Source of the DNA: a virus
Lineage: Duplodnaviria; Caudoviricetes
Virus record (IMG/VR): IMGVR_UViG_3300030620_000005
Location: 8,096 to 72,095 of that record
DNA: 64,000 nt
Strand: one strand, 5' to 3'
Positions within the stretch are counted from its first letter, which is position 1, and each line of letters opens with the position of its first letter. The translations under genes were made by a program, and so were the position numbers. The notes below the pieces were generated by a model, which made no database searches, was not told the origin of the DNA, and saw only the letters and a list, made by a program, of their open reading frames with translations. This document shows, piece after piece, positions 6,767-64,000 of this stretch.

Positions 6767-6787
6767 ACTGCGAAGGAGCATCACCCG

Positions 6788-7345: not shown

Positions 7346-7373
7346 GCCGGGACCGCCATGCGAGGATGCCACC

Positions 7374-7607: not shown

Positions 7608-7648
7608 GCGCTACACCGCTACCCGCGTCGGCTGCTTAGGATGCGTTC

Positions 7649-26289: not shown

Positions 26290-26337
26290 GGCCGCCTCCA
26301 CGTTCGTCGGAGGGTTGTGTTTGCGTGCCCGCTTGTT

Positions 26338-26373
26338 GAGTTGCGCCGGTAGCGGGCGCATCCGGCGCAACTC
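26338..26373. promoter_or_regulatory. Perfect 12-bp hairpin GAGTTGCGCCGG/CCGGCGCAACTC upstream of the capsid gene
   Basis: Inverted repeat about 50 nt before the capsid start. Confidence 0.55.
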
Positions 26374-26515
26374 AAGGCGAAGGGTATCCGCTAGCACACT
26401 GTGCTGCAATGTTCAACTATGTTGACCGGACCAGTGAACCTAATGGTCAGGCGCTCGGAGAGGGCGGCGGAGGGGGCGCCGGACGCCGCTTCTTATTGCA
26501 ACTGCACACGCTTGC

Positions 26516-29500: not shown

Positions 29501-29956
29501 GGAGTACGCGGCACAGATGCGCGGCTGCCAGGGCGTGTACTGGTCGGGAAGGTTCTCCGCGTCGAGGACGTTCGCCACCGAGTAACGGGCGGCGTCGTAG
29601 GCGTTCGCCAGTGCAGGTGCTACGGCCGGGCGGCCGTCGCCGCGATCGTCGCCGACGGCCCACACCCACGACGGGGAGTCGCCGTCGGAGTTCCAGTGGT
29701 TCGCGCCGAAGATCCGCGCCTCGATGGGCTGCCCGATCCAGTTGGCGTAGTCGGCGACTTGGTCGATGAGAGCGCGCCGCTCTTCGTCGGTGAACACGCT
29801 GCCGTCGTCGCCGAGGAAGTACAGCGTGCAGTGCAGATCCTCGGCAGCCTCGCCGCCCTCGATCGCCAGCCGCGCCGCGTCCTCCGGCGTGGGCATCAGC
29901 GCAATCATCGCGCCAGAGGTGTGCGAGCCGTCAGCGGCGGCCGTGAGCGAACCCAT
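26516..29956 (-). CDS. Polyprotein: 2H-phosphoesterase-like + MuF-like minor head + two prohead protease domains
   Basis: LHCTL...PWQPRICAAY; CKPC...CLGGSRCRG; SHGG...RGVSID; TGHAP...QVSGDW. Confidence 0.85.
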   Translation of the reverse strand: MGSLTAAADGSHTSGAMIALMPTPEDAARLAIEGGEAAEDLHCTLYFLGDDGSVFTDEERRALIDQVADYANWIGQPIEARIFGANHWNSDGDSPSWVWAVGDDRGDGRPAVAPALANAYDAARYSVANVLDAENLPDQYTPWQPRICAAYSDELDLIIALEERLGSVTFDRVRVAFAGEHTDIPLGGDVTASARVLTPRWDEDVVHVEVETNRGGALLLDAMCTAAEGLAAELGVPVRVTGRTRTTARTAAAGPLRRQPTELELASRADFTQMDKAWHEAVDGTVEAWASVQEAMRAEITASIQAAAEADNLDLLDGLTVDTEDGARLLIARMIAYAREAGEQQQAEAEAQGVDIPEWSLDDEALTAAAIRDRLRQIGRTAASVLGVGLVQSAVRQAMRVWGSGSPSQVAGQVDEHLTGLSGAAVEEQVGAAMSAAQNEGRMAVLAVAPPAEYTATEILEPGRTCKPCRDIDGTRYTTLPDARTAYPSGGYINCLGGSRCRGTLVTVWPQADEQAAAGMILSANADTMPHQTTNMEGTMPYRVQQDHPDCGADTPWAVIKEMTDELMGCHATEAEAMEQQAALYAEEGDRMQRDDEDDDERGLDYAGDTAPWEGVLAVEGIVTGDGREFAPGALQWADLPVPLRWNIEDSHGGEPHTVAVNVGRIDRIWRDDNKIMGAGVIDLSDDNGRRAYDKLKGEFLRGVSIDADSIADADVEFVWPDDVNAGAGEGDEDDLFEMLFAQPEKMIFHGGRIRAATLVDIPAFAEAYVALLDEQGAIVAGGQPVGETAVLALAVQEMGAVGTHDTATSDEPWDAGANEKRIDSPLTLAKARAAYGWYDGDAVEAGELAKSAAKFLHHEISADGTVGAANLAACSASIGALHGARGGTSIPEADRRGVYDHVAAHLRDAGREPEPFRSVHALAASGSVWAPPTAWFTDPGLSLPTPITVTDDGRIYGHAAQWGSCHIGQEGVCVQPPHEEQHPYYRTGEVKCDDGSRVAVGQITVGTGHAPLHMGASPAAEHYDNTGAAVADVAVGNDAHGIWVAGAVRPGADPLKVYELQAAGQVSGDWRRIGGQLRLVGLLAVNVPGFPVPKMRARVASGEPQALVAAGRPTVAWGRSQEQTERDAVRIVMRMLSRRVHPGGR

Positions 29957-39098: not shown

Positions 39099-39748
39099 TG
39101 CCGTCCGCTCCCCTCGTACTTCAGCCACGCGTTCGCCAAATGCTTCCCCGGCAGACTCGCGGGCTTCAGCTTCGCCTGCCGCAGCACGAACGGCTGCGAC
39201 ACCTGATCCCGCGCCGACCCGCTCTCGACCTCACGCGCCCACGCTGCGCCCATCCGCCGCACTGCCGTCGTATGCCGGCGGGCGATCACACCCGACGCCC
39301 ACAGCCCCCAGCCGGTGGGGTGCCCGGCCTCGCGGTAGCGCTTCGTCTGCCACGCCGCCACGCCGTCCGGGTCCTTGCCGAGTGCGGCGATCTCGATCGC
39401 CTCGTCGTACAGGCACGACCGCCACGGGTGCTCGAACTGCGCGATCGGCTTCGCCAGAGCGAGCGCCTCAACCGCAAAGTCCGAGGAGACGACACGGAAC
39501 GACGCGTCGATCCAGACCGAAGCCGCAGCGTCCGTGTACTTCCACGGCTCGAACTTCGCCACCTTCGCCGCACGCACCGGCAGCACATCCGGCTGAGGCT
39601 CCACCACCACACGCCAGCCCTTGGCGTCCACAGGCTCCGCGTCGGTGACGAACACCCAGTCCACCTCGACGCCAGCCTGCGCCAGCACCGGCTTCACCGG
39701 GTCGTAGGCGTCGTAGCACGCGGTCACAATCGCGATATCAGCGGGCAT
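39095..39748 (-). CDS. DUF616/MUCI70-like glycosyltransferase
   Basis: TACYDAYD, VFVTD, AKVAK, VWIDAS, HPWRSCLYDE, RDQVS. Confidence 0.78.
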   Translation of the reverse strand: MPADIAIVTACYDAYDPVKPVLAQAGVEVDWVFVTDAEPVDAKGWRVVVEPQPDVLPVRAAKVAKFEPWKYTDAAASVWIDASFRVVSSDFAVEALALAKPIAQFEHPWRSCLYDEAIEIAALGKDPDGVAAWQTKRYREAGHPTGWGLWASGVIARRHTTAVRRMGAAWAREVESGSARDQVSQPFVLRQAKLKPASLPGKHLANAWLKYEGSGRH

Positions 39749-40574
39749 CGCGGTACCACCTCACAGTCTCGGCAATCCGGTCCCAGTCCAACTCCGGCTT
39801 CCAGTCCAGCCGGTCCCAGCCCTCACCGCCTGCGGTGATCTGCACCGGCACCTCACCCGCACGCATCGGCAGATGCTCCACACCCGCGCGGCTGCCGGTT
39901 TCCCTCAGGACGAACTCCGCGAGCTCGTTCACGGTGACCGCAGTCCCGGTGCCCGCGTCGAACGTCTCGTCATCCCCGAACGCCGTGGCCTCAACGAGCA
40001 TGCGCCCGACGTCGTCGGCGTGGACGAGGTCCATGGCCTGCTCGCCGTCACCCCAGATCGGCAGCGGCCGGTTCTCCCACGCGGCGCGGGCGAAGGTGGG
40101 GAGGATCTTCTGCGGATGGCCCGGCCCGTAGTGCTGGTAGGGGCCGTAGCCGTTGAACGCGCGGACCGTCGACACCGGGAGCCCGTACGCGTGGTGCCAG
40201 GCGGTGGTCAGCCTGCGGGCGGCGACCTTCGTCGCGGTGTACACGCTCGGGAACGGATCCGGCATGCTGATGCCGACGTAGCGGGCGTCATGATCCCGGC
40301 ACCACTCCAACACCCGGAGGGTGCCGATGACGTTGACGTGGATGGCGGTCTCCGCCATGTCGAACAACTCGCTGGTGCCGAGGACGCCGGCGAGGTGAAT
40401 CACCGTGTCCGCGTCGCCGAGCGCGTCCAGCGAGCCGAGGACGTCCAGGCCCTGCGTACGGTCGAACGCCCACACCTCATGCCCCGCGGCTTCGGCGGCT
40501 TGAATGGTGGCGCGGCCGAAGAAGCCTGCACCACCTGTTACTGCGATCTTCAACGGTTTCTCCTTGCTGGTCAC
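39738..40574 (-). CDS. NAD-dependent sugar epimerase/dehydratase
   Basis: TGGAGFFG, IHLAG, YTATK (YxxxK), FNGYGP. Confidence 0.92.
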   Translation of the reverse strand: MTSKEKPLKIAVTGGAGFFGRATIQAAEAAGHEVWAFDRTQGLDVLGSLDALGDADTVIHLAGVLGTSELFDMAETAIHVNVIGTLRVLEWCRDHDARYVGISMPDPFPSVYTATKVAARRLTTAWHHAYGLPVSTVRAFNGYGPYQHYGPGHPQKILPTFARAAWENRPLPIWGDGEQAMDLVHADDVGRMLVEATAFGDDETFDAGTGTAVTVNELAEFVLRETGSRAGVEHLPMRAGEVPVQITAGGEGWDRLDWKPELDWDRIAETVRWYRDAR

Positions 40575-41248
40575 CACGGCCTCTTCCCCCACTTCTTGCC
40601 GAACGTCTCCATGTCGCGTCCGGCTTGCGTCTGAAGCTCGGGGCGCTCGTACATCGAGCCGTTGGGGCACCGGTGCTCAACCGCCAGGCCCGGGACGAGG
40701 AGCGCACCGCCCCGCTCGCGTGCAACCCAGTCGATGTCGTCGTCACTCGCCCACCAGGCCATCGACTCGTCGAGACGGAGCCCGGCCTCACCGCGGAGCA
40801 GGTAGGCGTAGCCGGTGATCCGTGTCCGCAGGTCCACCGGTTCGGCCTTCGTGTGGAGGATCTGCCGTCGGCCGCCGTGCTGGTCTGGGTAGGCGAGCAC
40901 CGCGGTGGTGGAGCGCATCGCCGTGGACAGGCCGTCGATCCAACCAGCGGGGACGGTGACGTCGGAGTTGAGGACGGCGATGTCCCACCGGTCGGCGCCG
41001 TGGCTGTATGCGGTCAGGTCTGAGTTGGCGAGCCCGATGTTCCACAGCAGGCTGATGTTCGGTGGGTCGATTGGCGCCCACACCACATGCACCTTGCCGT
41101 GCCACGGCTCGGGGTCGATGCGCGGGTCGGAGAGGTTGTCGATGACGGTGACCTGGTCGACCTGGTCGACGACGGAGTTGATGCAGTCGGCGAGCATGTC
41201 GTGCCGGTTCCGCGTCGGGATCACCGCGGCCCGGAACAGGTCACCCAT
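40571..41248 (-). CDS. GT2-like glycosyltransferase
   Basis: AVIPTRNR, VIDN, LWNIG, LNSDV, WWASDDDI. Confidence 0.82.
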   Translation of the reverse strand: MGDLFRAAVIPTRNRHDMLADCINSVVDQVDQVTVIDNLSDPRIDPEPWHGKVHVVWAPIDPPNISLLWNIGLANSDLTAYSHGADRWDIAVLNSDVTVPAGWIDGLSTAMRSTTAVLAYPDQHGGRRQILHTKAEPVDLRTRITGYAYLLRGEAGLRLDESMAWWASDDDIDWVARERGGALLVPGLAVEHRCPNGSMYERPELQTQAGRDMETFGKKWGKRPW

Positions 41249-41468
41249 CGGTCGACTCCCGCAAGGATGCGCGCAGTACGTCGCCGATCTCCAGCAGGGC
41301 GTGTACAACGGCAGCGGTGGCGATGGCTTGGGCTTTCGCCGAGTGCGCCAGCATGACGTCGGTCCTGACTTCGCCAATGGGGATCTCGTTGAGGGCGGAA
41401 GCGACGCCGTCTAGGCATCCCTTGGCGGACTTCCGGTGGGGCCCCTCTCCGGGGGCTGAGGCGCTCAC
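41241..41468 (-). CDS. Small hypothetical protein
   Basis: GTGA-coupled 75-aa ORF. Confidence 0.5.
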   Translation of the reverse strand: MSASAPGEGPHRKSAKGCLDGVASALNEIPIGEVRTDVMLAHSAKAQAIATAAVVHALLEIGDVLRASLRESTDG

Positions 41469-42487
41469 GCGGCGAGCCACTGCGGGTTGTCGGCGTACCA
41501 CTTCACGATGTCCGTCAGCGTGTCGTCCAGCGGCCGCGGACCAGGCCACCCAAGCCCGGCGAGCTTCGACCCGTCGAGCGCGTAACGGTGGTCGTGTCCC
41601 GGCCGTTGCCCGTGGTAATCGACGAGCTCGTAGTCGAGGGTGCGGCCAGCCGCGGCGGCCATGCGCTGGGCGACGTCGAGGTTGGTCGCCTCCTCACCGA
41701 CGATGTTGTAGCGCAGCGGGCCGGTGGGCATCGTCGGGTAGTACGTCAGCCGCTCGTCGCCGTCGAAGTGCTCGGTGAGCCACAGCCACGCGTTGGCGAA
41801 GTCGCGGGCGTCGACCCAGCAGCGGGAGCCTGAGACGCCGTCGGGGCTGGCGTGGACAGTGAGCTTCTCCCCGCGGTAGATGGCGCGGGCGATCTTCGGA
41901 ATGAACTTCTCCGCAGCCTGCGGGGCAGGGGAAAGGAGATTCATAGTGTTGGTGACCAGCAAAGGAATCCCGAGTGCGCGCCAGTACGAGTAGGCGATTG
42001 CCTCCTGCGCCGCCTTCGACGCGGCGTACGGATTGGAGGGGCGGATGCTGTCCCACTCGTGATGCCGGTAGCCCTCGGCAGCCGGCCCGAACACCTCGTC
42101 GGTCGACATCTGCAGGAACATCCGCGGCTTCGCCACGCGCGCGTACTCCAGCATGTTCAGCATGAGCTCGACGTTGTTCCGCACGAACGACACCGGGTCG
42201 GTGAGGGAGCGGTCGACGTGGGACTCGGAGGCGATGTTCCACACGTAGTCGATCGGGCCGATCTGCTCGGCGAGGATCGGCGTGATCGGAAGCGCCAGGT
42301 CGTGGGCGATGACGTCGACCCGGTTGCGGGCGTCGGGCTGTGCGTCGAGGACGGCGTTGATGCGGGCGCCGTCGCCGTGGTGCCGGTACGACACCGGACA
42401 CGTCACATGCCAGTCCGTGTTCGCGAGGACGTGGGCGAGGACGGTCGAGCCGACGAACCCGGACGCCCCGCTCAGAAGAATGCGCAT
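41465..42487 (-). CDS. dTDP-glucose 4,6-dehydratase-like (RmlB-type) enzyme
   Basis: GASGFVG, ASESHVDRS, STDEVFG, PSNPYAASK, RPGHDHRYALD. Confidence 0.92.
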   Translation of the reverse strand: MRILLSGASGFVGSTVLAHVLANTDWHVTCPVSYRHHGDGARINAVLDAQPDARNRVDVIAHDLALPITPILAEQIGPIDYVWNIASESHVDRSLTDPVSFVRNNVELMLNMLEYARVAKPRMFLQMSTDEVFGPAAEGYRHHEWDSIRPSNPYAASKAAQEAIAYSYWRALGIPLLVTNTMNLLSPAPQAAEKFIPKIARAIYRGEKLTVHASPDGVSGSRCWVDARDFANAWLWLTEHFDGDERLTYYPTMPTGPLRYNIVGEEATNLDVAQRMAAAAGRTLDYELVDYHGQRPGHDHRYALDGSKLAGLGWPGPRPLDDTLTDIVKWYADNPQWLAA

Positions 42488-49410: not shown

Positions 49411-49983
49411 CTACTTGCCGACCAGCCACTCCACCGGCTCATCCAAATCCTGCGGCGAATACAGAACCCGCTCCGCACGCCCGAACCCATCCGGCACCTC
49501 GAAGAAGACGTTCCCCCGCACGCAGTCCCCACCCCGCACCTTCGCATCCATCGGATACACCGGCTGCGGCAACTCGGGCGCACTCATATGGAACGGCTCC
49601 ATCCGCGCCCCGTCCTCGTAGGCCAGAGACCACACGAACGGGCTCACCGTCACCGGCTCATCGTCCTTGTTGCACACCTTCACCTCGACCAGGGCCAGCT
49701 TCAGCCCAGCTTGCAGCATTCCCGGCGGACTGGTGACGCCCTTGTCCTTGTAGGCGAACGCGGCGGCGGAGAAGTCGTAGCCGCCCGCGTTGACGTTGAC
49801 GGTGTCCCCGAGGCGCAGCGTCTCCTTGCTGGGTGACGGGCTCGGACTCGGGGTCGGCTTCGTGGCGGTGGCCGACGGCGTGTCGGTGGCTTTCGACACG
49901 GTGGGCTTATCGGAGCCGTTGGAGCAGCCGGCGGTGAGTCCGGCGAGCAGCAGGGCAGCGGTGATCACAGTGGTGTTGCGCAT
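49411..49983 (-). CDS. DUF4352-like lipoprotein
   Basis: Lipobox LTAGC; LVEVKVCNKDDEPVTVSPFVWSLAYEDG; GDCVRGNVFFEVP. Confidence 0.82.
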   Translation of the reverse strand: MRNTTVITAALLLAGLTAGCSNGSDKPTVSKATDTPSATATKPTPSPSPSPSKETLRLGDTVNVNAGGYDFSAAAFAYKDKGVTSPPGMLQAGLKLALVEVKVCNKDDEPVTVSPFVWSLAYEDGARMEPFHMSAPELPQPVYPMDAKVRGGDCVRGNVFFEVPDGFGRAERVLYSPQDLDEPVEWLVGK

Positions 49984-50052
49984 GGTCCCCCCAAGGACGT
50001 TGTGGTGGGCGGGATCGTAGCGGCCAGTACCGACACAGCGTGCGGGAACGGC

Positions 50053-50094
50053 GAAGGCCTCACCGCCCGGGGGGAATTCAGCGGTGAGGCCTTC
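50053..50094. terminator. Terminator after traB
   Basis: Perfect 14-bp stem GAAGGCCTCACCGC/GCGGTGAGGCCTTC. Confidence 0.8.
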
Positions 50095-50109
50095 AGAGGT
50101 GCCGGGCGT

Positions 50110-50254
50110 GACCCGGCGCGTAGCTGCCAGTGTGGCAGGAACGGCAACTGGTCAGGGGTCGGAACGCGGGGCGAGCGGCGGCCAGCGGGCCCGACCCGTA
50201 GGCCGTCGAAGTCCGACCCCGTATCCGACCCGCCCACCACCGCGTTGACCTGCG
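50110..50254. repeat. Candidate clt locus: co-oriented 8-mers GACCCGGC, GACCCGTA, GACCCCGT, GACCCGCC, GACCTGCG
   Basis: At 50110, 50193, 50215, 50227 and 50247, directly downstream of traB. Confidence 0.55.
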
Positions 50255-50257
50255 CGT

Positions 50258-52018
50258 TCACTGCGTCGCTATGGCCTGCGCCTCCCACGCCTCCGCTGGC
50301 AGGATCCGCCACGTCTGGGTGTCGGCGCAGCGCTCCACTTCCGGGCCGAGCGCACGGGCCGCATCGAGGACCTGCTTCTCCGTGAGCCCGGTCGCGGCCT
50401 CCAGTTCGCGGCGTGTGCAGTTCCCGTACTTCGCCAGCGCGGCCCTCACCTTGTCCTGATTCGTCCCCCCGCTGACGGGCAGGACCAGCCGCTTCCCCAC
50501 CGGGGCCTTCACCGTATCCGCGCCGATCCGGGCGACCTCCGCCGTGAACTCGTCCTTCGTCAGCCACATGCCCTTGTACGGGGCCGGCTGCTGGTGGTCC
50601 GGGGACTGGAGGAGGAACTTTCCGGGCGCGTCGAGGTCGCCGGGTTCCCATCCGGGGGTGGTGCCGAAGATGAACCGGCGGTGGTCGCGGTCCGCCATGC
50701 GCGTGCTGATGCGGACGCTGTAGTTGCCGCGGGCGTCGGTGGTCCCGCCGAAGACTTTCCGGGACGGCTGCTGGGTGGCGGCGATCAGATGAATGCCCGC
50801 GAACCGGGCCAAAGCGAGCAGAGATTCCAGCTTCCTCGTTGCCGGATCCTTCTTCCACGGGCCGACATCGGCCTGCCGGACCAGCTCGCCCAGCTCGTCG
50901 AACACCGCCCACAGTGCAGGCCGGCCGTGCTTGACCGGGTCCCACTCCTGGTCGCCAGCATCCGCGAGGATCTGTCCGCGCTCGCCGAGCTCCTGCTTCA
51001 GCCAGTCGAGGAAGGCGTGCGCCTGCTCCGGGGTCTGCGCGAGGTCTTGGAGGATCGGCAGCATCGGCGTCATCTCCGGCGCTCCCGGTTTGAGGTCGCA
51101 GCCGTAGACCACGATGTCCGGGCGGTCCGCGAGCTGGAGAACGATGGACCGAACCAGCGTGGACTTACCGAATTTACTGGACCCGGCTACGAGAGCATGC
51201 GCGTAGGCGAGGTCGATCCACACGGGGTTCAGGAACCGGTCGACGCCGAGAAGGACCGGGTCGCAGAACCGGCCGGCCGTCTGCCGCTGGTAGGGAATCA
51301 CCGTGCTGAGCGGATCGCCGTCAATGAACTTCGCGATCAACTGGCTCGTCAGCGCCCCGTCCTCCAGGACGAACTCCCCGGCCACGCCGAGCCCGCCGGC
51401 CACCTTGGGCCAGGCGCCCCGGAGCTTCGTCCGGTCGAGAGTGACAGGCAGGTCCAGGACGGCCGTCCACCCTGTCCGGGTCCGCTCGACCGCGCATCCG
51501 GGCAGTTCAGCGCCGAACAGCTCGTGCATAACGGTCCTGATCCGGGTCTCCTCCACCGTCCGTCCGGACAGATCCGGACCTGTCCGGACGGGCTCCGGAG
51601 CCGTCATCTTGGCGAGGTGCTGGAGCTTGATCTGCTGGCCGATGCGGGCGGTCTCCAGCCGTACCGACTCCTGCTCGACCTTCAGATCGTCGTGCCGGGT
51701 GTGGTGCCGGTACACCACCCGGCAGCCCGCCGCCGCGGCAACAGCGACGAGCCACGCGTAGACGCCGGCCGCTCCATCCAGCGCGCCGGTGGCCCACGCC
51801 TGCCCGAACGCCCCGGCCGCCGCGGTGGAGCCCCAGGCCAGGGCGGGCGGCCACTTCTTCGAGAACACAGTCCAGGCGAGACTCCCGGTCGCGATTGCGG
51901 CACCGAACTCGACCGCGGCGGCGGTGGTGCCGTACTGCCAGTCCGCGACCAGGGCGGTGGCGGAGACGAGGGTGGGCGCGGCGAGGGCGGCGGCCAAGTC
52001 GGTGCGGGTGAGCTTCAC
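50258..52018 (-). CDS. traB: FtsK/SpoIIIE-family conjugative DNA translocase (Streptomyces TraB-like)
   Basis: N-terminal TM helices; Walker A GSSKFGKS; Walker B AVFDE; ARFAGIHLIAATQQP; C-terminal winged helix CTRRELEAATGLTEKQV. Confidence 0.88.
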   Translation of the reverse strand: MKLTRTDLAAALAAPTLVSATALVADWQYGTTAAAVEFGAAIATGSLAWTVFSKKWPPALAWGSTAAAGAFGQAWATGALDGAAGVYAWLVAVAAAAGCRVVYRHHTRHDDLKVEQESVRLETARIGQQIKLQHLAKMTAPEPVRTGPDLSGRTVEETRIRTVMHELFGAELPGCAVERTRTGWTAVLDLPVTLDRTKLRGAWPKVAGGLGVAGEFVLEDGALTSQLIAKFIDGDPLSTVIPYQRQTAGRFCDPVLLGVDRFLNPVWIDLAYAHALVAGSSKFGKSTLVRSIVLQLADRPDIVVYGCDLKPGAPEMTPMLPILQDLAQTPEQAHAFLDWLKQELGERGQILADAGDQEWDPVKHGRPALWAVFDELGELVRQADVGPWKKDPATRKLESLLALARFAGIHLIAATQQPSRKVFGGTTDARGNYSVRISTRMADRDHRRFIFGTTPGWEPGDLDAPGKFLLQSPDHQQPAPYKGMWLTKDEFTAEVARIGADTVKAPVGKRLVLPVSGGTNQDKVRAALAKYGNCTRRELEAATGLTEKQVLDAARALGPEVERCADTQTWRILPAEAWEAQAIATQ

Positions 52019-52073
52019 GGCGGCTCCGTAAACGGTGCGGCCCCCGCGGTCAGGCGGGGGCCAGGGCGGGCGG

Positions 52074-52784
52074 CTACAGGTACAGGCCAGTGCCGTCGTC
52101 CAGGCGATCGCGGGCTTCCTTCAGACGGCGGTACGCCGTCGACAGAGAGACCCCGAGGATCTCGGCGGCGCCCGTTTTGGTGATCTGCTCACCGCGGTGG
52201 ACACGCCGTGCCAACTCGGTGATCTGCTCCTCGGCCTCGCCGCTCGGGGCCGGGTGAAACGGCAGGTCGGACTGTCCGGACGCAGTCGCGGATGACCGTC
52301 CGGACGCGTACCTGAAGATCTCCGGAGACAGTTCGAACCACTCGGTGTTCCCGTTGCGGTACTGCGTGAACCGGGCATGCAGTGCCCGCTCCAACTCCGG
52401 TCCGCCGTGCAGGGCGAGGAGGACGCTGTCGCTGCGTAGTGCGAGCGCGCCCAGCCGGCTCTTCAGGTTCGTGGTGTACCCGATCTTCACCCGGCCGCCG
52501 TTGGCGATGAAGTAGACGACGCTGTCGTGGACGCCGCTCAACAGGCTCTCTACGGAAACCGGCATGGCGGAGGTGGTCAGTTCCTCGCGGGCGACGAGGC
52601 TGGTCGGCCCGCTGGTCAGGGCGGTCTCCAGCCCGCTGCGGAGCAGCTCGGGCACGACGGTGAGGGCGACCTCGATGCGGTGGGCGTGGCAGAGCGGGAC
52701 CGGGCGCAGGGCGTCGGCCTCGCGGGTGCAGCGGCGTCCCTCGTCATCGGCGATGCAGTCGAGGGTGTCGGCTGGGGTGCTCAC
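52074..52784 (-). CDS. GIY-YIG (T5orf172-like) nuclease domain with C-terminal HTH
   Basis: GTG 52784 after GGAGGA; VVYFI..VKIGYTTNLKSRL..ERALHARF..EWF; KTGAAEILGVSLSTAYRRL. Confidence 0.8.
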   Translation of the reverse strand: MSTPADTLDCIADDEGRRCTREADALRPVPLCHAHRIEVALTVVPELLRSGLETALTSGPTSLVAREELTTSAMPVSVESLLSGVHDSVVYFIANGGRVKIGYTTNLKSRLGALALRSDSVLLALHGGPELERALHARFTQYRNGNTEWFELSPEIFRYASGRSSATASGQSDLPFHPAPSGEAEEQITELARRVHRGEQITKTGAAEILGVSLSTAYRRLKEARDRLDDGTGLYL

Positions 52785-52800
52785 TGGTCCTCCAGAAGGG

Positions 52801-53724
52801 CTACAGGTACGTGTTGCCGAGGCGCTTGGCGGTGCGGCGGATGCTGTCGGCGTTGAGGTCCGGGCGCAGGCGGACGGCGGTCTTGACAAGGTCGTCGTTG
52901 CGGACGCCGTGTCCGGCCAGCGTCCGGACGAGATCGGACGGCCCGGACGCCTCGTCCGCGATCTTCCGGAGTGGATCCGGACGGGTGTCCTCGCTGGTGA
53001 TCGGCTGCGGTGCAGACGTCCCGAGGACAACGTCCGGAGAGGCGGACGGACGTCCGGACTTCTCGTCCGGACTGTCCTGGACAACGGACGGGACATCCGG
53101 CCGACGGGACTCCAGCGCCAGGCGCAGCTTCACTGTCCGGTCCTTCGTGAGGAGCCGGTCTCGTTCACCGAGCGCGAGGGCCTGTTCGGTGCCGGCCTGC
53201 TGCTGCAGGGTGCGCAGGTAGGCCTCGTACTTAGGGTCGAGCTTGATGCGGATGGTGTGCATGCCGATCGCCCACACGCCCTTGGCGGCGACGGAGACGA
53301 GCGCGCCGACGATGCCGACGAGGAGAGCGTCGTCGCGGTGGCCGTGCAGGACGATCGCGGCGACGGACACGGCGAGCATGGCGATGCCTGCTTTCCGTGG
53401 GAGTTCGGCGCGCTTGCTGTCGTAGCGCAGTAGCCATTCGGCGATGAGGCAGGCGGCCCATCCGGCGTCGAAGACTCCGGCGACGAGGTAGGCCGCCCAG
53501 CTGGGGGCGAGGAGGGTGAGCATGCTGCCGATGGCGACGGTGCCCCAGACGATGGCGCCGATGGTCATGAGGCAGGCGACGGCGAAGAGGCCGCGTCGGA
53601 GGGTGGCGTCGAGGTTGAAGGGGAGTCGGATGACGGGGGTGTTGTCGGGGATGTCGTAGGTGACGTCGACGCCGTGGACGGTCTCGGTGATGGGTCGGCT
53701 GGGGTGGCGGAACGGGGCGCGCAT
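52801..53724 (-). CDS. Spread (SpdB-like) multi-pass membrane protein
   Basis: Four TM helices, coiled coil, repeat-encoded Ser/Pro/Asp linker, basic C-terminus. Confidence 0.7.
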   Translation of the reverse strand: MRAPFRHPSRPITETVHGVDVTYDIPDNTPVIRLPFNLDATLRRGLFAVACLMTIGAIVWGTVAIGSMLTLLAPSWAAYLVAGVFDAGWAACLIAEWLLRYDSKRAELPRKAGIAMLAVSVAAIVLHGHRDDALLVGIVGALVSVAAKGVWAIGMHTIRIKLDPKYEAYLRTLQQQAGTEQALALGERDRLLTKDRTVKLRLALESRRPDVPSVVQDSPDEKSGRPSASPDVVLGTSAPQPITSEDTRPDPLRKIADEASGPSDLVRTLAGHGVRNDDLVKTAVRLRPDLNADSIRRTAKRLGNTYL

Positions 53725-53753
53725 GGCGGGGCCTCCGGGGCGGGGGTCGGCGG

Positions 53754-53993
53754 TCAGGGGTGGGCGCGGGCGGTGCGGGGGCGGTGGGTGCGGATCTGGT
53801 GGGCGATGTAGCAGGCGCCGGCGGTGAGGAGCGCGGCCTCGGGCTGGTGGGCGGCGGCTTCGGCGATGCCGGTGACGATGGCGAGGACCATCCCGGCGGC
53901 GAGTTGCGCGATGGTGTTGGCGGTTTCGGGGTGCATGGCGGCGAGGATGAGGAGGGCGCCGATGAGGAGGTTGCGGAGCAGGTGGCTTCGCAT
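53754..53993 (-). CDS. Small membrane protein (Spd-like)
   Basis: Hydrophobic 79-aa ORF in the tra operon. Confidence 0.65.
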   Translation of the reverse strand: MRSHLLRNLLIGALLILAAMHPETANTIAQLAAGMVLAIVTGIAEAAAHQPEAALLTAGACYIAHQIRTHRPRTARAHP

Positions 53994-54083
53994 TGCGGTC
54001 TCCGGGTGTGGTCGGGGCGGATGGGTCTGGCCGGATTTCCAGGGCGCGCGTACCGGGTGGGGACGCGCGCCGTGGGCTACCGG

Positions 54084-54257
54084 TCAGCGGCGGCAGTCGA
54101 GCGTTTCCAGTTCGGTGTTGATCTGCTCGTGGAGTTTGTTGGCGAGGTCGCGTTGCTGCGGGGTGGACATGTGGTCGTCTTCGATCTGGCGGGCGAGGGT
54201 GGCCTCGGCGGTGATGGCGTTTTGGATTTGTTCGGTGGTGCGGGTGTCACGGCACAT
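54084..54257 (-). CDS. Small hypothetical protein in the tra operon
   Basis: MCRDTRTTEQ... after GGAG. Confidence 0.55.
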   Translation of the reverse strand: MCRDTRTTEQIQNAITAEATLARQIEDDHMSTPQQRDLANKLHEQINTELETLDCRR

Positions 54258-54327
54258 GGGGTGCTCCATTGGAGGTGGGGCCGCGCCCCGGCTGGGGGTG
54301 GTGCCGGGGCGCGGCGGTGTGTGGGGG

Positions 54328-54498
54328 TCAGCGGCGTTGGGTGGCCTGTTGGTCCATGACGCGGCGTACGTCCTCGGCGGCCTGGTAGTCGGCTTGGCAT
54401 TGCTCGACGGTGGCGGGGGTGGCGAGGATCTGGTTCGGGCGTGGCGCGAGAGGCGCGGGGGTGGGCTGGCCAGATGGTTGGCCGTTACGCTCTTGCAC
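54328..54498 (-). CDS. Small hypothetical protein, first gene of the tra operon (56 aa, absent from the ORF track)
   Basis: GTG after AGGAAGG; MQERNGQPSG... Confidence 0.5.
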   Translation of the reverse strand: MQERNGQPSGQPTPAPLAPRPNQILATPATVEQCQADYQAAEDVRRVMDQQATQRR

Positions 54499-54603
54499 GG
54501 CTGTCCTTCCTGTACACGGCAGGTGGATGGCTGGCCCGGCGGGAAGGTGAGATTTCCCGCCGGGCCGTTTTCATTGGCGAGCAGCGTGGGCTGCGCAGTA
54601 CCG

Positions 54604-54632
54604 ACTGTACGGGATACCCCGTACACTGGCAA
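54604..54632 (-). promoter_or_regulatory. tra operon promoter TTGCCA-N17-TACAGT overlapped by inverted repeat TGTACGGG-ATAC-CCCGTACA (54606-54625)
   Basis: The inverted repeat also covers the plus-strand -10 box TACACT (54622-54627) of the divergent HTH gene. Confidence 0.68.
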
Positions 54633-54660
54633 CGCGGCCTGCCCACGGAAGGGACAGGGC

Positions 54661-54957
54661 ATGGAAGAGGAGGTGCAGCGCGTGTTCGACGCTCTCGCAG
54701 GTCTTGCCGACATCGAGGACCCGAAGGTACGCGCGCTCGCTGTGGCGAGGGTGCTCAAGGAGTGGCCCGACCACAGCAAGGCACTCCGCGAGATCAGGCG
54801 TCAGGCCGTACTCGAACTCCTCGCCCCGGAGGGAGCCACCTTCCGAGGAATCGCGAAGGAGTTGGGCGTGAAGCCGAGCACGTTGCAGGACATCGCTTCG
54901 GAGTACTCGCGGTGGGCGAAGCGCCCGAAGAAGGACCCTGAACAGCAGGCCGAATGA
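54661..54957 (+). CDS. Small HTH regulator divergent from the tra operon (Kor/TraR-like role inferred)
   Basis: ATFRGIAKELGVKPSTLQDI. Confidence 0.75.
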   Translation: MEEEVQRVFDALAGLADIEDPKVRALAVARVLKEWPDHSKALREIRRQAVLELLAPEGATFRGIAKELGVKPSTLQDIASEYSRWAKRPKKDPEQQAE

Positions 54958-55029
54958 GAGAAGCCCGAGCGGCGTGAGAGGCCACTCGGGCTGAGAAGCA
55001 CCCGACCCAAGCAAGAGAGAGGCGCTCCG

Positions 55030-55680
55030 TTGAGCGTACAGAACCAGACCTGTGGCGACGAGCAATGGGTGGCCATACCCGGATTCGAGGGTCACTACCT
55101 CGTATCGCCTGAGGGGCGCGTGCGAAGCATGAAGCGGCGCAATCACGACGGCAGCCCGATCTTCGTGAACTGGCGAAAGAACACACACGGATATGCGGCG
55201 GTGGAGTTGTGGCGCGACGGCAAGCCCAAGAAGCGCCCCGTCCACGCCCTCGTTGCGGCGGCCTTCCTCGGTCCACGCCCAATCGGCCAAGAGGTGAGGC
55301 ACCTCGACGGGAACCGCATGAACCCACATCTGGCCAACCTGGCGTACGGAACCCGTAGCGAGAACAATCTCGACAAGCGGGCGCACGGGACGGACCACAA
55401 CGCATCCAAGACGCACTGCCCGCAGGGCCACCCGTATGACGCTGCGAATACGCGGGTCATTGCATCCCGCCCGGGAGCGCGGTACTGCCGTGCCTGTGAC
55501 GTGCTTCGCGGCAAGGGCAACCCGGACCGCGATTGGACTCGGTGCCCGCAAGGTCACGTGTTCGACGAGGCCAACACGTATGTAGACAGCAAGAACAAGC
55601 GGCACTGCCGAACATGCCACCGAGAGCGGCAGCGCAACCGCTACTGGGAGCGTAAGGGCGTCAACGCGCCGTCCGAGTAG
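55030..55680 (+). CDS. Free-standing NUMOD4-HNH homing endonuclease
   Basis: EQWVAIPGFEGHYLVSPEGRVRS; VHALVAAAF..VRHLDGNRMN..NL; two CPQGH repeats. Confidence 0.9.
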   Translation: MSVQNQTCGDEQWVAIPGFEGHYLVSPEGRVRSMKRRNHDGSPIFVNWRKNTHGYAAVELWRDGKPKKRPVHALVAAAFLGPRPIGQEVRHLDGNRMNPHLANLAYGTRSENNLDKRAHGTDHNASKTHCPQGHPYDAANTRVIASRPGARYCRACDVLRGKGNPDRDWTRCPQGHVFDEANTYVDSKNKRHCRTCHRERQRNRYWERKGVNAPSE

Positions 55681-61338: not shown

Positions 61339-62007
61339 TTACGGCGTCTCGCCGTGCTCGAAGCGGGCGCAGCGGCCGAGGGTGTAGGCGGCCTCAAGGT
61401 GCGGGCCGACGGCTATGCCGGGGTGAAGCATCGGCTTCGTCAGGTCCCCTTTCAGGGGTGTGGTCGACGGCCGGCCGACGGGAATGGGCATGGCTCCCAG
61501 GCGCTGCCAGGCGACTAGCTCGCCGGCCTGGATGCTGTTCAGGTCGGCGCCGAGGCGTTCCAGGTCGGCTATGGCGAGAAATACGTGGAGGCCGTACAGG
61601 GCCGGCGGGAACTCGCACTCCTCGGAGCAGCGGTGGGGCTGCCCGCAGTAGGCGCCGCGGGTGACGCTGTGGTGGAGGGGAGCGGCGCCGTTGGTGTCGG
61701 GGATCTGCCCGAGGATGATCAGGTTGGTGCTGCCGCCGTTGGGGCCTATTCCTTTGGTGGGGTGGACTGCGTCGGCGAGGAGGTTCATGTCGAGCCAGTC
61801 TTGGCTTCCTTTGACTTCGACCCACCATCCGATGTCGGGAAGGTGGAAGTCGGGCAGGTACGGGCGGCGCTGCTCGCCGACGAGGTAGCCCTGGGGTTCG
61901 TATTCCCAGCGGATGCCGAGGTCGTTGAAGACGTTGGCCCAGCGGGCTTCGAGGCGGCTACGGAAGTGGTGTCCGGCGTAGTAGGTCTCGATTGCCTGGA
62001 TGGTCAC
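61339..62007 (-). CDS. PD-(D/E)xK nuclease-like protein
   Basis: FRSRLEARWA..WEYEP..YLPDF..VEVKG. Confidence 0.75.
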   Translation of the reverse strand: MTIQAIETYYAGHHFRSRLEARWANVFNDLGIRWEYEPQGYLVGEQRRPYLPDFHLPDIGWWVEVKGSQDWLDMNLLADAVHPTKGIGPNGGSTNLIILGQIPDTNGAAPLHHSVTRGAYCGQPHRCSEECEFPPALYGLHVFLAIADLERLGADLNSIQAGELVAWQRLGAMPIPVGRPSTTPLKGDLTKPMLHPGIAVGPHLEAAYTLGRCARFEHGETP

Positions 62008-63362
62008 AGCTTTGGTCCCATCGAGCGGAGTCGGGCGTAATGGCCTTGGAGGATGAGCGGGACGATCCGACCGGCGGGCCCGTTGCGGTTCTTCGCGACG
62101 ATCAGGTCGATCTCTCCGCTGCGGTCCGGGATGCCCATCTCGGGGTCGGCGACCGGCGGCTTGTGCATGAGGACGATCACGTTGGAGTCCTGCTCGATCG
62201 CCGAGGAGTCCTTGAAGTCGGACACGGTGGGCTCGCGGCCGACGGCGCCTCGGTTGAACTGGGCGAGGGCGACGACGGGGATCTCGAACTCCATGGCGAG
62301 GAGCTTGAGGTTGCGGCTGATCTCGGCGACTTCGTTGGCCCGGTTGCGGTCTTTCTTGCTGGGCTCGGGTGTGACGAGCTGGAGGTAGTCGGCGACGACG
62401 ATGGCCGGGGTGCGGCCGGTGCCTGCCATCCAGCGGACGCGGGTGCGGATCTTGCTGACGGTCAGGTTGGGGCTGTCGTCGAGGATGAAGTTGTGGGCGT
62501 TCTGGAGCTTGGGGGCGGCGCGGAAAACTCGCTCCCAGTCGGTGGGGCTGAGGTTGCGGCGGATGAGCTTCTCAACGTTGACGCCGGCTTCGGCGGCGGT
62601 GAGGCGGGCCATGAGTTCGCCGCCGCCCATTTCCATGGAGGCGACGAGCGCGGGGCGGCTGCGGGTGAGGGCGACGTGGGCGGCGAGGTTGACGCCGAAC
62701 AGGGACTTGCCGCCTCCGGTGGCTGCGCCGACGGTGATGAGTTGGCCGGGCTTGAGTTCGATGACGTCGTTGAGGTCGTGCCAGGGGGTGTCGAGGGCGC
62801 GGGGGTCGTGTCCGGCTTCGAGTTCGTCGATGAAGCCCATCCACCGGTCGGCGACGGAGAGTTTCTCGTCGGCGGTGGTGACGCCTTTGGCGGCGGCTTG
62901 GAGGTCGGACATGACGGCTTCGAGGACTTCGGCGGCGGCTTGGGTGGCGGCGAGGACGCGGCTGGTGCCGGAGCGGGTGGCGCGGAGGATGGCTCGGAGT
63001 TGGGCGTGTTCGCGGATGATCTCGGCGTATCCGGCGGCGTTGCCGACGATGGGTACGGATTGGGCGAGTTCGTGGATGTAGGGGGCTCCGCCGACTTTGG
63101 TGAGTTCGCCGGTGGCGAGGAGTTCGGCGGCGACGGTGATGGGGTCGATCTTGGGTTTCCGGTCGCGGCAGGCCATGTCGATGATCGTTCGGTAGACGAT
63201 CTGGTGGCGGGGCTCGTGGAAGTCTTCGGGGCCGGTGAGGATGCGGTCGATGGTGTCGATCGCGGCGGGGTCGTAGAAGGTGGAGCCGAGGGCGGCTTTC
63301 TCGGCTTCGAGGTTGTGGGGTTCGGCGGTGGTGGCGGCTGCGTCCCAGAGTGGTTCGGTCAT
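62004..63362 (-). CDS. dnaB: Replicative DnaB-like helicase
   Basis: HNLEAEKAALG; GAATGGGKS; SMEM; ADYLQL; ISRNLKLLA; SSAIEQDS; AKNRNGP. Confidence 0.95.
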   Translation of the reverse strand: MTEPLWDAAATTAEPHNLEAEKAALGSTFYDPAAIDTIDRILTGPEDFHEPRHQIVYRTIIDMACRDRKPKIDPITVAAELLATGELTKVGGAPYIHELAQSVPIVGNAAGYAEIIREHAQLRAILRATRSGTSRVLAATQAAAEVLEAVMSDLQAAAKGVTTADEKLSVADRWMGFIDELEAGHDPRALDTPWHDLNDVIELKPGQLITVGAATGGGKSLFGVNLAAHVALTRSRPALVASMEMGGGELMARLTAAEAGVNVEKLIRRNLSPTDWERVFRAAPKLQNAHNFILDDSPNLTVSKIRTRVRWMAGTGRTPAIVVADYLQLVTPEPSKKDRNRANEVAEISRNLKLLAMEFEIPVVALAQFNRGAVGREPTVSDFKDSSAIEQDSNVIVLMHKPPVADPEMGIPDRSGEIDLIVAKNRNGPAGRIVPLILQGHYARLRSMGPKL

Positions 63363-64000
63363 GCTGCGTGGCCTTTCGCTTTGGGGTTGCAGGCGGGGCA
63401 GTGGGTGAGGCTGCGGATGCCTTTGCCGTCTTCGGTTTCTCGGGTGCGGGTGACGGGGTCGCAGTCGGGGTCGCCGCAGTGCGGAGGCTTGGGGCCGTGG
63501 CTGCCCTTGGGCGGCTGCGGGTCGACGGCAGGGGCGAGGCCGAGCCAGCCGGACTTGAGGAAGAACGTGGCGAAGCTGATCGGCTCGCCGTTTCGGGTCT
63601 TCAGTCCGCGGGCGAAGGTGACCATCTGCTGGACGCCTGCGCGCTGCTGGACTCTGGCGATGGCCTGTACGTCCTCGGGTTGCATCTGCCAGGAGACGCG
63701 GATGCCGGCTTCGCTCATGGCTTTGATGAGCGGCTGGATGTAGTCGAAGGCCTTGGGGATCCGGCTCTCGCTGCTGTCCTGCGTGCCCCGTTCGGCGGCG
63801 GGGGGAGGGGAGGGGTAGTTGGTGTTTGTGTTACTACCGTTATGGGGTCCGGATTTCGGACCCCCAGGGGTCCGGATTTCGGACCCCCCCGGTCCGGATT
63901 CTGTACCGGTCCGGATTTCGGACCGGTCCGGATTCTGTACCGGTCCGGATTTCGGACCCCCTTCATGGCCTGACCTGCTGCGATGCTGTGATTTCGAGGA
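63359..64000 (-). CDS. Replication initiator (5' end beyond the window)
   Basis: The frame of ORF 63359-63718 is open to base 64000 by manual translation; contains the iterons; coupled to dnaB. Confidence 0.75.
   Translation of the reverse strand, partial: SSKSQHRSRSGHEGGPKSGPVQNPDRSEIRTGTESGPGGSEIRTPGGPKSGPHNGSNTNTNYPSPPPAAERGTQDSSESRIPKAFDYIQPLIKAMSEAGIRVSWQMQPEDVQAIARVQQRAGVQQMVTFARGLKTRNGEPISFATFFLKSGWLGLAPAVDPQPPKGSHGPKPPHCGDPDCDPVTRTRETEDGKGIRSLTHCPACNPKAKGHAA
63846..63958. repeat. Six 17-bp iterons GGTCCGGATT(TCGG/CTGT)ACC (candidate origin)
   Basis: Copies at 63846, 63869, 63891, 63908, 63925 and 63942; the last four are perfectly tandem; an A/T-richer tract lies at about 63815-63843. 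Confidence 0.85.

What the first reader, a model, noticed from the sequence alone, without database searches (positions are those of the whole stretch)
50053..54957. Complete plasmid-type conjugation module inside a tailed temperate phage
Seen: a divergent HTH gene with an operator over a TTGCCA-N17-TACAGT promoter; an operon of small genes, an SpdB-like membrane protein, a GIY-YIG/HTH protein and TraB with intact Walker motifs and winged helix; then repeats and a terminator. Established: in Streptomyces, TraB plus a clt site is sufficient to move circular dsDNA between hyphae, Spd proteins spread it, and Kor/TraR represses tra. Inference: the excised phage circle can travel by conjugation and intramycelial spread, bypassing receptors and adsorption barriers. 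From memory, the plasmid-phage pZL12 is a precedent, but here the element encodes an integrase and I found no partition genes in the window.
Basis: partly seen in the sequence, partly recalled or inferred. Interest (0 to 1): 0.82.

Follow-up and report, generated by a model that had tools for sequence, protein, structure and literature searches.

The report
TraB DNA pump module in Streptomyces phage
A temperate tailed phage of Streptomyces carries, as a conserved part of its own genome, the DNA pump, membrane helper and matching DNA docking repeats that Streptomyces plasmids use to push double-stranded DNA between hyphae. The phage may therefore also spread without virus particles, but this has not been tested.

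Summary
The operon lies on the minus strand of a tailed-phage contig that carries a tape measure gene, major capsid, portal, DnaB and an intact tyrosine integrase.

- **Operon content.** Three small ORFs, a four-TM DUF2637 protein remotely homologous to pIJ101 SpdB, and a 586-aa FtsK/SpoIIIE translocase built like TraB (membrane anchor, motor, C-terminal winged helix).
- **Regulation.** A divergent HTH gene and a conserved palindrome inside the only sigma-70-like promoter.
- **T5orf172/HTH gene.** It is an insertion specific to this window, not part of the module.
- **Docking repeats.** Just after traB lies an array of 8-mers (GGGTCGGA, direct and inverted). In 31 related loci the 8-mer falls into four classes that match the TraB winged helix perfectly. 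In 16 aligned loci, seven of the ten class-discriminating residues of the whole protein lie on predicted recognition helix 3.
- **Spread and selection.** The module is under purifying selection, is found in many Streptomyces prophages, and sits in two different capsid backbones.

Transfer itself remains inference, with no expression or mating data. The plasmid-phage pZL12 is a published precedent. This scan has noted analogous modules in at least 36 other genomes, none close in sequence.

The parts
54661..54957 (+). Divergent 98-aa HTH regulator (HTH_23), the candidate repressor of the operon
   Evidence: Pfam HTH_23, E 1.3e-6. Homologues with the same upstream palindrome occur in L015, L017, L018 and L027.
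54604..54632 (-). Operon promoter TTGCCA-N17-TACAGT, with the 18-bp palindrome GTACGGGATACCCCGTAC (54607-54624) in and over the spacer and -10
   Evidence: It is the only sigma-70-like hit in 49900-55100. The palindrome and -35 are conserved in relatives that carry the regulator.
54532..54567 (.). Strong hairpin in the operon leader. On the + strand it reads as a terminator-like site upstream of the regulator gene.
   Evidence: -31.2 kcal/mol, z -5.65. The structure is kept with different sequences in L015 and L017.
54328..54498 (-). Small ORF of 56 aa with an AGGAAGGA ribosome-binding site
   Evidence: GC3 0.77 and the start context. No family match.
54084..54269 (-). Small ORF of 61 aa
   Evidence: GC3 0.84. 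It is 88-93 % identical in L004 and L018.
53754..53993 (-). 79-aa membrane protein directly upstream of the SpdB-like gene
   Evidence: GC3 0.94 and a hydrophobic segment at residues 25-49. Conserved at 48-99 % in 10 relatives.
52801..53724 (-). SpdB-like polytopic membrane protein (DUF2637) with a degenerate C-terminal HTH
   Evidence: Pfam DUF2637, E 2.4e-4. About four TM segments. BLASTP to pIJ101 SpdB gives E 2e-5; hhalign gives 86.7 %, E 4e-6 over 143 columns.
52074..52784 (-). MUG113/T5orf172 (GIY-YIG-like) + HTH gene, a window-specific insertion that carries a second copy of the SpdB C-terminal HTH
   Evidence: Pfam. In relatives only its last ~50 residues match, and they are the C-terminus of the one-piece DUF2637-HTH protein.
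50258..52018 (-). TraB-like FtsK/SpoIIIE dsDNA translocase, 586 aa: N-terminal helical membrane anchor, motor domain, C-terminal winged helix (helices 520-531, 536-543, 547-556, then a wing)
   Evidence: Pfam FtsK_SpoIIIE, E 8e-13. The AF2 model has pLDDT 94.8. Foldseek top hits are TcpA of pCW3 (E 1e-19) and FtsK (E ~3e-18). The PDB profile search gives FtsK at E 6e-47. dN/dS is 0.24-0.38.
50156..50253 (-). clt-like array: conserved GCAGGTCA box (50246-50253); direct GGGTCGGA at 50224-50231 and 50212-50219; GGGTCGG at 50191-50197; inverted copy at 50156-50163
   Evidence: Four of the window's 27 7-mer sites fall within 76 bp. The same architecture occurs in 31 loci, with the 8-mer class matching the TraB helix-3 class.
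50102..50138 (-). Conserved box CTGCCACACTGGCAG (50124-50138) and hairpin CCGGGTCACGCCCGG (50102-50116). Function unknown.
   Evidence: The box recurs downstream of the repeats in most relatives. The hairpin folds at -13.8 kcal/mol, z -2.9.
50053..50094 (-). Operon terminator hairpin with a 16-bp stem and no U-tract
   Evidence: -31.4 kcal/mol, z -5.13.

Best explanation
This is a TraB/clt/SpdB-type double-stranded-DNA translocation module that belongs to a family of temperate Streptomyces siphophages.

Proposed mechanism (inferred):
1. The divergent HTH protein binds the palindrome inside the promoter and keeps the operon off, in the manner of kil/kor control.
2. When the operon is derepressed, membrane-anchored TraB assembles as a ring.
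3. TraB docks through helix 3 of its C-terminal winged helix onto the 8-mer array just downstream of its own gene.
4. TraB pumps the excised or replicating phage DNA across a hyphal cross-wall or into an adjoining mycelium.
5. The SpdB-like protein, which in relatives carries its own HTH, and the 79-aa membrane protein form the accessory spreading channel.

Shown here: the domain architecture, remote homology to pIJ101 Tra and SpdB, the repeat array, co-variation between repeat class and recognition helix, purifying selection, and residence inside complete phage genomes.

Inferred: DNA binding, pumping, and any capsid-independent transfer or spread.
For: - **Architecture and fold.**
- **Homology to pIJ101.** Collinear alignment with pIJ101 Tra, including the winged helix. 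SpdB homology.
- **Best named family.** plasmid_TraB is the top NCBIfam match.
- **Repeat array.** It starts a few bases after the traB stop codon. This is where pWTY27's clt lies, which is 16 bp inside traA plus the adjacent 159 bp (PMC3583192).
- **Four repeat classes.** Across 31 loci the 8-mers are GGGTCGGA, GGGGTGGA, GGGGTCCC-like or GGGGGCGAA. All copies within a locus change together, and each class pairs with one helix-3 sequence: QVLDAARAL, QVRDAAGAL, QVLKAIEGL or QVRDAAR.
- **Where the discriminating residues lie.** In the 16-locus alignment (three classes) only 10 columns of the 586-aa protein separate the classes. Seven of them are in residues 547-556, which is predicted helix 3. 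pSVH1 TraB uses the same helix to read its 8-bp repeats (Vogelmann 2011, as cited in PMC3583192).
- **The other HTH is not the specificity partner.** The SpdB C-terminal HTH keeps an invariant recognition helix across classes.
- **Selection and spread.** dN/dS is 0.24-0.38. The listed 120 homologue clusters are all at 72 % identity or more and include many Streptomyces genomes.
- **Native to phages.** The module sits in complete phage genomes with two different capsid types.
Against: - There is no functional or expression evidence.
- TraB lies far below the NCBIfam TraB cut-off (33 bits against 800) and is only 27 % identical to pIJ101 Tra.
- The winged-helix coding region and the repeats are less than 100 bp apart. 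Part of the co-variation could therefore be linkage within a recombining cassette.
- FtsK-like genes are also annotated in Streptomyces phages that include Woodruffvirus-type genomes, with no known function (PMC11536984; bioRxiv 10.1101/2024.02.16.580700).
- The regulator is not a Kor/TraR homologue.
- Induction of a phage normally kills the donor, which limits the window for mating.
Confidence: 0.6

Rival explanations
1. Spread within one mycelium only. The module moves replicating phage DNA across the cross-walls of an already infected mycelium, raising yield or lysogenisation. It does not mediate mating between separate mycelia.
For: - In pSVH1, the Spd proteins and TraB act in intramycelial spreading (PMC4447253).
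- The same paper suggests phage SpdB2 homologues spread phage DNA.
- FtsK-like genes occur in many Streptomyces phages (PMC11536984; bioRxiv 10.1101/2024.02.16.580700).
Against: The machinery is the same as for mating, so sequence cannot separate the two roles. The tight repressor/operator layout looks like kil/kor control of a transfer function held silent in lysogens.
Confidence: 0.2
2. Segregation device. The pump and its docking repeats clear excised or replicating phage DNA from closing vegetative or sporulation septa, in the manner of FtsK/SpoIIIE with KOPS/SRS. This secures inheritance rather than transfer.
For: The motor resembles FtsK in sequence and fold. No ParA/ParB was found.
Against: - An integrated prophage needs no segregation system of its own, and the integrase is intact.
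- The 8-mer is not enriched or oriented across the genome (8 found against 6.3 expected). It is clustered at one site, like clt and unlike KOPS.
- The gene is linked to an SpdB homologue.
Confidence: 0.08
3. Replication or packaging site. The repeats are iterons of an origin, or a pac-like site, read by some other phage protein. The FtsK-like ATPase has a role in replication or DNA processing.
For: Direct plus inverted short repeats also typify origins. The module sits next to the replication genes: DnaB at 62004-63362 and a resolvase-like gene.
Against: The repeat class follows TraB helix 3 even where the rest of TraB and the flanks are mosaic. TraB has a membrane anchor, and the SpdB-like partner is a membrane protein.
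Confidence: 0.06
4. Exclusion or interference. The module blocks or hijacks incoming plasmids, AICEs or superinfecting phage DNA.
For: Prophage accessory genes are often defensive. A window-specific lipoprotein gene (DUF4352) and homing-type nucleases lie beside the module.
Against: A cis site matched to the element's own pump argues that the element's own DNA is the substrate. No PADLOC scan was run, so this is not excluded.
Confidence: 0.04
5. Decaying relic of a captured AICE or plasmid, with no current function.
For: The T5orf172 insertion and the degenerate HTH at the end of the window's SpdB-like protein show some local erosion.
Against: Full-length intact ORFs are found in all 31 loci. 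dN/dS is 0.24-0.38, the Walker motifs are invariant, and the repeats have evolved in concert.
Confidence: 0.02

Closest known systems
tra/spd/clt systems of Streptomyces conjugative plasmids (pIJ101 Tra-SpdA-SpdB-KorA; pSVH1 TraB-clt-SpdB2; pWTY27 TraA-clt)
   Same: - A single FtsK-like translocase with a membrane anchor and a C-terminal winged helix.
- A cis array of short direct and inverted repeats beside or overlapping the 3' end of the tra gene.
- An SpdB-type polytopic membrane protein in the same operon.
- A divergent repressor with an operator at the promoter.

PMC3583192; PMC4447253.
   Different: - Identity to pIJ101 Tra is only 27 %, and the NCBIfam TraB score is 33 bits against a cut-off of 800.
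- The repressor is HTH_23, not GntR.
- The SpdB-like gene lies upstream of traB.
- In relatives SpdB is fused to an HTH.
- The host replicon is a ~70-kb tailed phage, not a plasmid or AICE.
Streptomyces plasmid-phage pZL12 / phiZL12 (Zhong et al. 2010, J Bacteriol 192:3747; paper not held, known here through PMC3583192, PMC4487206 and PMC7157519)
   Same: One replicon combines virion genes with a conjugal transfer locus. [quoted passage not shown]
   Different: - pZL12 is an extrachromosomal plasmid-prophage with ParA/ParB (PMC4487206).
- This element has a tyrosine integrase, and no ParA/ParB was found.
- Relatives are integrated proviruses.
- pZL12 was not among the phage or plasmid hits listed for this TraB (only the best 30 rows of each were shown).
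FtsK-like DNA translocases annotated in isolated Streptomyces phages (Gilgamesh gp10, Mischief19 gp79; Geonosis, Mandalore, Naboo)
   Same: FtsK/SpoIIIE motor in a Streptomyces phage. Gilgamesh gp10 is the best match in the phage database (32 % over 377 residues). It has an FtsK domain and a winged-helix-like tail, and is followed by a membrane protein.
   Different: The relationship is distant. No repeat array lies downstream in Gilgamesh, there is no adjacent SpdB/DUF2637 gene, and the function is unstudied.
Actinomycete integrative and conjugative elements (pSAM2, SLP1, pMEA300)
   Same: Tyrosine integrase plus a TraB-type translocase plus Spd-type membrane proteins on an integrating element (PMC2440964, PMC3218068).
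   Different: AICEs are 9-24 kb, carry RepSA/RepAM/Prim-Pol replication genes and have no virion genes. Here the module sits among phage replication and structural genes.

Membership tests
Streptomyces TraB/Tra conjugative translocase | FtsK/SpoIIIE motor with Walker A and B | tested here: met
   Pfam, E 8e-13. GSSKFGKST and DE are invariant. The fold matches TcpA and FtsK.
Streptomyces TraB/Tra conjugative translocase | N-terminal membrane association | tested here: met
   Hydrophobic segments at residues 7-26 and 79-103. Four long N-terminal helices in the model. This is prediction only.
Streptomyces TraB/Tra conjugative translocase | [quoted passage not shown] | tested here: met
   Model helices 520-531, 536-543 and 547-556 plus two strands, pLDDT >90. 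The profile hits ArsR-type winged helices. The region aligns in register with the pIJ101 Tra C-terminus.
Streptomyces TraB/Tra conjugative translocase | Helix 3 reads short repeats of a clt next to the tra gene | tested here: inconclusive
   The array is present and placed correctly. Repeat class and helix-3 class associate perfectly in 31 loci, and 7 of 10 discriminating residues are on helix 3 in the 16-locus alignment. Binding was not measured, and linkage is a caveat.
Streptomyces TraB/Tra conjugative translocase | Scores as an equivalog of NCBIfam NF041214 plasmid_TraB | tested here: not met
   33 bits against a cut-off of 800. It is nevertheless the best NCBIfam hit.
Streptomyces TraB/Tra conjugative translocase | tra plus clt is sufficient for plasmid transfer; pock formation | not testable with these tools
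   Needs mating assays.
SpdB / SpdB2 spreading protein | Polytopic (about four TM) membrane protein homologous to plasmid SpdB, encoded in the transfer operon | tested here: met
   About four TM segments. BLASTP E 2e-5 and hhalign 86.7 %, E 4e-6, to pIJ101 SpdB. Synteny with traB in all relatives. The homology is remote, and Pfam DUF2637 is just under its cut-off (21.5 against 22.8 bits).
Kor/TraR (GntR-type) transfer repressor | GntR-family HTH with a UTRA-type effector domain | tested here: not met
   The 98-aa protein matches HTH_23 only. The position (divergent) and the operator in the promoter are analogous.
Phage-plasmid of the pZL12 type | Autonomous plasmid maintenance genes (ParA/ParB, RepA) | tested here: not met
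   No PF13614 or PF02195 match in the 72-kb record. An integrase is present. The record is 77 % complete, so absence is not proven.
AICE | Int + Tra + RepSA/RepAM/Prim-Pol on a small element without virion genes | tested here: not met
   Int and Tra are present, but the element carries tape measure, capsid, portal and DnaB genes. AICE-type Rep genes were not searched for specifically.

The most novel reading that the evidence does not exclude
A large family of integrating Streptomyces siphophages are dual-mode elements. They spread as virions and, through a native TraB/clt/SpdB apparatus, as naked dsDNA between hyphae. Their TraB winged-helix/clt cassettes have diversified into at least four swappable specificity classes, which keeps co-resident elements from mobilising one another. 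This would be a conjugation analogue of phage immunity groups.
Probability: 0.35. Interest if true: 0.82.

Novelty: new variant of a known kind. Interest (0 to 1): 0.62.

Why it matters
If the module works, these phages can enter hosts without a receptor and cross hyphal compartments without lysis. That would blur the line between prophage and conjugative element. It would also change how host range, lysogen spread and gene flow in soil Streptomyces are modelled.

The co-varying recognition helix and 8-mer classes form a natural specificity-swap series for FtsK-family DNA recognition. They can be tested directly by EMSA and helix exchange.

Relatives lie in culture-collection strains (S. yokosukanensis DSM 40224, S. 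ossamyceticus NRRL B-3822), so mating tests are feasible.

Tried and rejected
- **RNA evidence:** no RNA holder was listed for the module. Only soil and sediment metagenome DNA runs hold it. Read laying was not used, because contigs cannot show transcripts.
- **First AF2 model,** built on 20 close homologues, was poor (pLDDT 42). It was replaced by the 85-sequence model.
- **Window-wide enrichment or strand bias of GGGTCGGA:** none found (8 against 6.3 expected).
- **Repeats downstream of the FtsK-like genes** of Gilgamesh and of a 131-kb Streptomyces plasmid: none obvious.
- **SF3 and TurkishDelight,** the only isolated phages with a DUF2637 relative: no FtsK domain was detected in the neighbouring genes tested.
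- **Small plasmids with DUF2637 relatives**: the neighbouring large proteins gave only weak P-loop hits, so they were uninformative.
rejected, because its recognition helix is invariant across repeat classes.
- **Contexts of distant TraB relatives P0122 and P0126:** the contigs were too short to classify.
- **Primary papers** on pZL12 (PMC2897331) and on TraB/TRS (PMC3117642) are not held. Their content is cited second-hand. The pSVH1 TRS sequence GACCCGGA is from memory and from a first-reader note.
- **The genome-contig scan** gave only 5 loci.
- **One literature search** returned only irrelevant papers.

Full report
**Context.** The window is bases 8096-72095 of a 72,095-bp IMG/VR virus record that CheckV rates 77 % complete. 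It is about 68 % G+C. I called genes by third-position GC and checked the calls against profile libraries.

The element is a tailed phage. PHROGs finds:
- a tape measure protein (15833-18664);
- a tail fibre protein;
- a major head protein (24538-26409, E 9e-133);
- a portal (29931-31727);
- a large head polyprotein (26516-29956);
- a DnaB helicase (62004-63362);
- a tyrosine integrase (4264-5157).

The integrase has a complete catalytic domain and a SAM-like core-binding domain. The 8 kb of the record to the left of the window encode WhiB, RecT, an exonuclease and a vWA protein. These look like phage early genes rather than host flank. No ParA or ParB domain is found in the record.

- The 98-aa HTH_23 gene runs 54661-54957 (+).
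- The only sigma-70-like promoter in 5.2 kb is TTGCCA-N17-TACAGT at 54632-54604 (-).
- An 18-bp palindrome (54607-54624) lies across its spacer and -10.
- In relatives that carry the same regulator, the palindrome and the -35 are conserved. So is a strong leader hairpin, which keeps its structure with different sequences.
- The operon then has small ORFs of 56, 61 and 79 aa, the last a membrane protein.
- Next comes a DUF2637 protein with about four TM segments (52801-53724).
- Then a MUG113/T5orf172 + HTH protein (52074-52784).
- Last is a 586-aa FtsK/SpoIIIE protein (50258-52018).
- A hairpin of -31.4 kcal/mol ends the unit at 50053-50094.

**The translocase.**

*Fold.* With an 85-sequence alignment the AF2 model reaches pLDDT 94.8. 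It shows four long N-terminal helices with hydrophobic segments at 7-26 and 79-103. These are followed by an alpha/beta motor and a C-terminal winged helix: helices 520-531, 536-543 and 547-556, then two strands. Foldseek ranks the pCW3 conjugation coupling protein TcpA first (E 1e-19), followed by FtsK motor domains.

*Sequence.* A profile search of PDB sequences gives FtsK at E 6e-47 and ArsR-type winged helices for the tail. The protein aligns collinearly with pIJ101 Tra from the Walker A motif through the winged helix (27 %, E 1e-11).

*Limits.* Its best NCBIfam match is plasmid_TraB, at 33 bits against a cut-off of 800. It is therefore TraB-like in architecture but not an equivalog of the curated family.

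**The membrane partner.** The DUF2637 protein matches pIJ101 SpdB by BLASTP (E 2e-5). A profile comparison gives 86.7 % probability, E 4e-6, over 143 columns spanning the TM core.

In relatives the protein is about 310 aa and ends in an HTH. In this window that HTH is degenerate. A second, better copy forms the C-terminus of the extra T5orf172 gene. The GIY-YIG-like gene is therefore an insertion specific to this window, not a module component.

**The cis site.**

*The array in this window.* A few bases after the traB stop codon lies a conserved GCAGGTCA box. It is followed by GGGTCGGA twice, GGGTCGG once, and one inverted copy (50156-50231). The 8-mer is not enriched window-wide (8 found against 6.3 expected). 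However, three of the eight 8-mer sites, and four of the 27 7-mer sites, fall within 76 bp. A Poisson estimate puts this near 4e-5 after correcting for position.

*Repeat classes in relatives.* I collected 31 loci, about 27 of them non-redundant, from IMG/VR, GTDB genomes and metagenomes. All share the architecture, but the 8-mer falls into four classes:

| Class | 8-mer | TraB helix-3 sequence |
|---|---|---|
| 1 | GGGTCGGA | QVLDAARAL |
| 2 | GGGGTGGA | QVRDAAGAL |
| 3 | GGGGTCCC-like | QVLKAIEGL and close variants |
| 4 | GGGGGCGAA | QVRDAAR |

Within a locus all copies, direct and inverted, belong to one class, and no locus breaks the pairing.

*Where the specificity residues lie.* In the 16-locus alignment, which holds three of the classes, only ten columns of the 586-aa protein are class-invariant and class-discriminating. 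Seven of them lie in residues 547-556, which is the predicted third helix of the winged helix, and two lie in the wing. The rest of TraB groups differently, in a mosaic pattern. For example, L010 and L015-L017 combine a class-3-like body with a class-1 tail. The recognition helix of the SpdB C-terminal HTH does not vary with class.

*Comparison with plasmids and a caveat.* This is the pattern expected if TraB reads the repeats through helix 3. That mechanism is reported for pSVH1 TraB (Vogelmann 2011, as summarised in PMC3583192). The position also matches the experimentally defined pWTY27 clt (PMC3583192). The caveat is that the tail coding region and the repeats are less than 100 bp apart, so cassette linkage contributes to the association. 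Even within the last 40 residues, though, the concentration on helix 3 is unlikely by chance (hypergeometric P about 6e-4, my calculation).

**Conservation and distribution.**
- traB is full-length in all loci, with dN/dS of 0.24-0.38 and invariant Walker motifs.
- The listed 120 homologue clusters are all at 72 % identity or more (295 proteins in all at E ≤ 0.001). They include many named Streptomyces species and many 60-78-kb contigs.
- The library of 50 %-identity representatives holds 242 relatives at E ≤ 1e-10.
- The module sits in complete viral records with direct terminal repeats, in IMG/VR proviruses, and in at least two capsid backbones. One backbone has the window's PHROG-777 type capsid, which is also found in a contig of Streptomyces sp. 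A012304. The other has an HK97 Phage_capsid type. All three main repeat classes occur across these backbones.
- No isolated phage in the phage database carries this TraB family. The best match is Gilgamesh gp10 at 32 %.

**What is known.**
- FtsK-like genes are routinely annotated in Streptomyces phages, with no function assigned (PMC11536984; bioRxiv 10.1101/2024.02.16.580700).
[quoted passage not shown] It has ParA/ParB (PMC4487206).
- I found no paper that describes integrating tailed phages with a TraB, a matched clt-like array and SpdB.
- This scan has noted analogous modules in at least 36 other genomes. None is close in sequence to this TraB.
- A first-reader note on this genome had already flagged the repeats. 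I reached them independently and added the comparative test.

**Verdict.** The module's identity as a TraB/clt/SpdB-type DNA translocation system native to these phages is well supported. Its use for capsid-independent transfer or spread is a reasonable inference that remains untested. I class it as a new variant of a known kind, of moderate to high interest.

Noticed in passing
window 51563-53071 and 63848-63949: TCCGGA palindromes cluster here. Thirteen of the window's 35 lie in 1.5 kb of the tra operon, four of them at ~10-bp spacing inside traB codons 140-152. Six more sit at 17-23-bp spacing in the apparently non-coding right end of the window, which could be an iteron-like array. The enrichment in the module is absent from 15 relatives, so it is specific to this window.
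   Followed up: partly
window 52074-52784: The T5orf172/MUG113 (GIY-YIG-like) gene looks like a mobile insertion. It split or duplicated the C-terminal HTH of the SpdB-like protein. Relatives have a single DUF2637-HTH protein.
   Followed up: yes
window 55030-55680 (+): A NUMOD4 + HNH_3 homing-type endonuclease lies directly after the regulator gene. It is 100 % identical in L018 (regulator also in L027) and only 40 % identical in L005, where it lies far from the module; no match in the other relatives. Those two loci are otherwise only 81 % identical in TraB, and the record holding L018 has a different capsid type.
   Followed up: partly
window 50124-50138: The box CTGCCACACTGGCAG, which contains the inverted repeat TGCCA-N3-TGGCA, recurs downstream of the repeats in most relatives. 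On the other strand it resembles the -35 side of the operon promoter (TTGCCAGTGT). Its function is unexplained.
   Followed up: partly
window 54532-54567: A 13-15-bp-stem hairpin lies in the operon leader. On the + strand, where it has a T-run, it reads as terminator-like. Relatives keep the structure with different sequences, so it may be an attenuator or an insulator between the divergent genes.
   Followed up: partly
L003 (record 1-8200) and window 1-2443: The left end of the record encodes WhiB, RecT, an RNase_T-type exonuclease and a vWA-TerF-like protein on the minus strand. These continue the early-gene block seen at the right end of the window. The record therefore looks like a permuted phage genome without host flank.
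   Followed up: partly
window 26516-29956: A 1146-aa head polyprotein combines an RNA-ligase/2H-like N-terminus, a portal/MuF-like region and prohead protease matches.
   Followed up: no
window 7816-8901 and 39738-42487: A glycosyltransferase and two nucleotide-sugar epimerase/dehydratase-like genes lie within the phage. They may serve virion glycosylation.
   Followed up: no
window 49411-49983: A DUF4352 lipoprotein gene lies just after the operon terminator. No relative carries it, so it is window-specific cargo.
   Followed up: partly
H31-H35 (plasmid records of ~130 kb): The best plasmid-database matches to this TraB (36 %) are five linear Streptomyces 'plasmids' of 129-133 kb. That is the size of phage Gilgamesh (129 kb), so they may be Gilgamesh-like phage-plasmids or prophages.
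   Followed up: no
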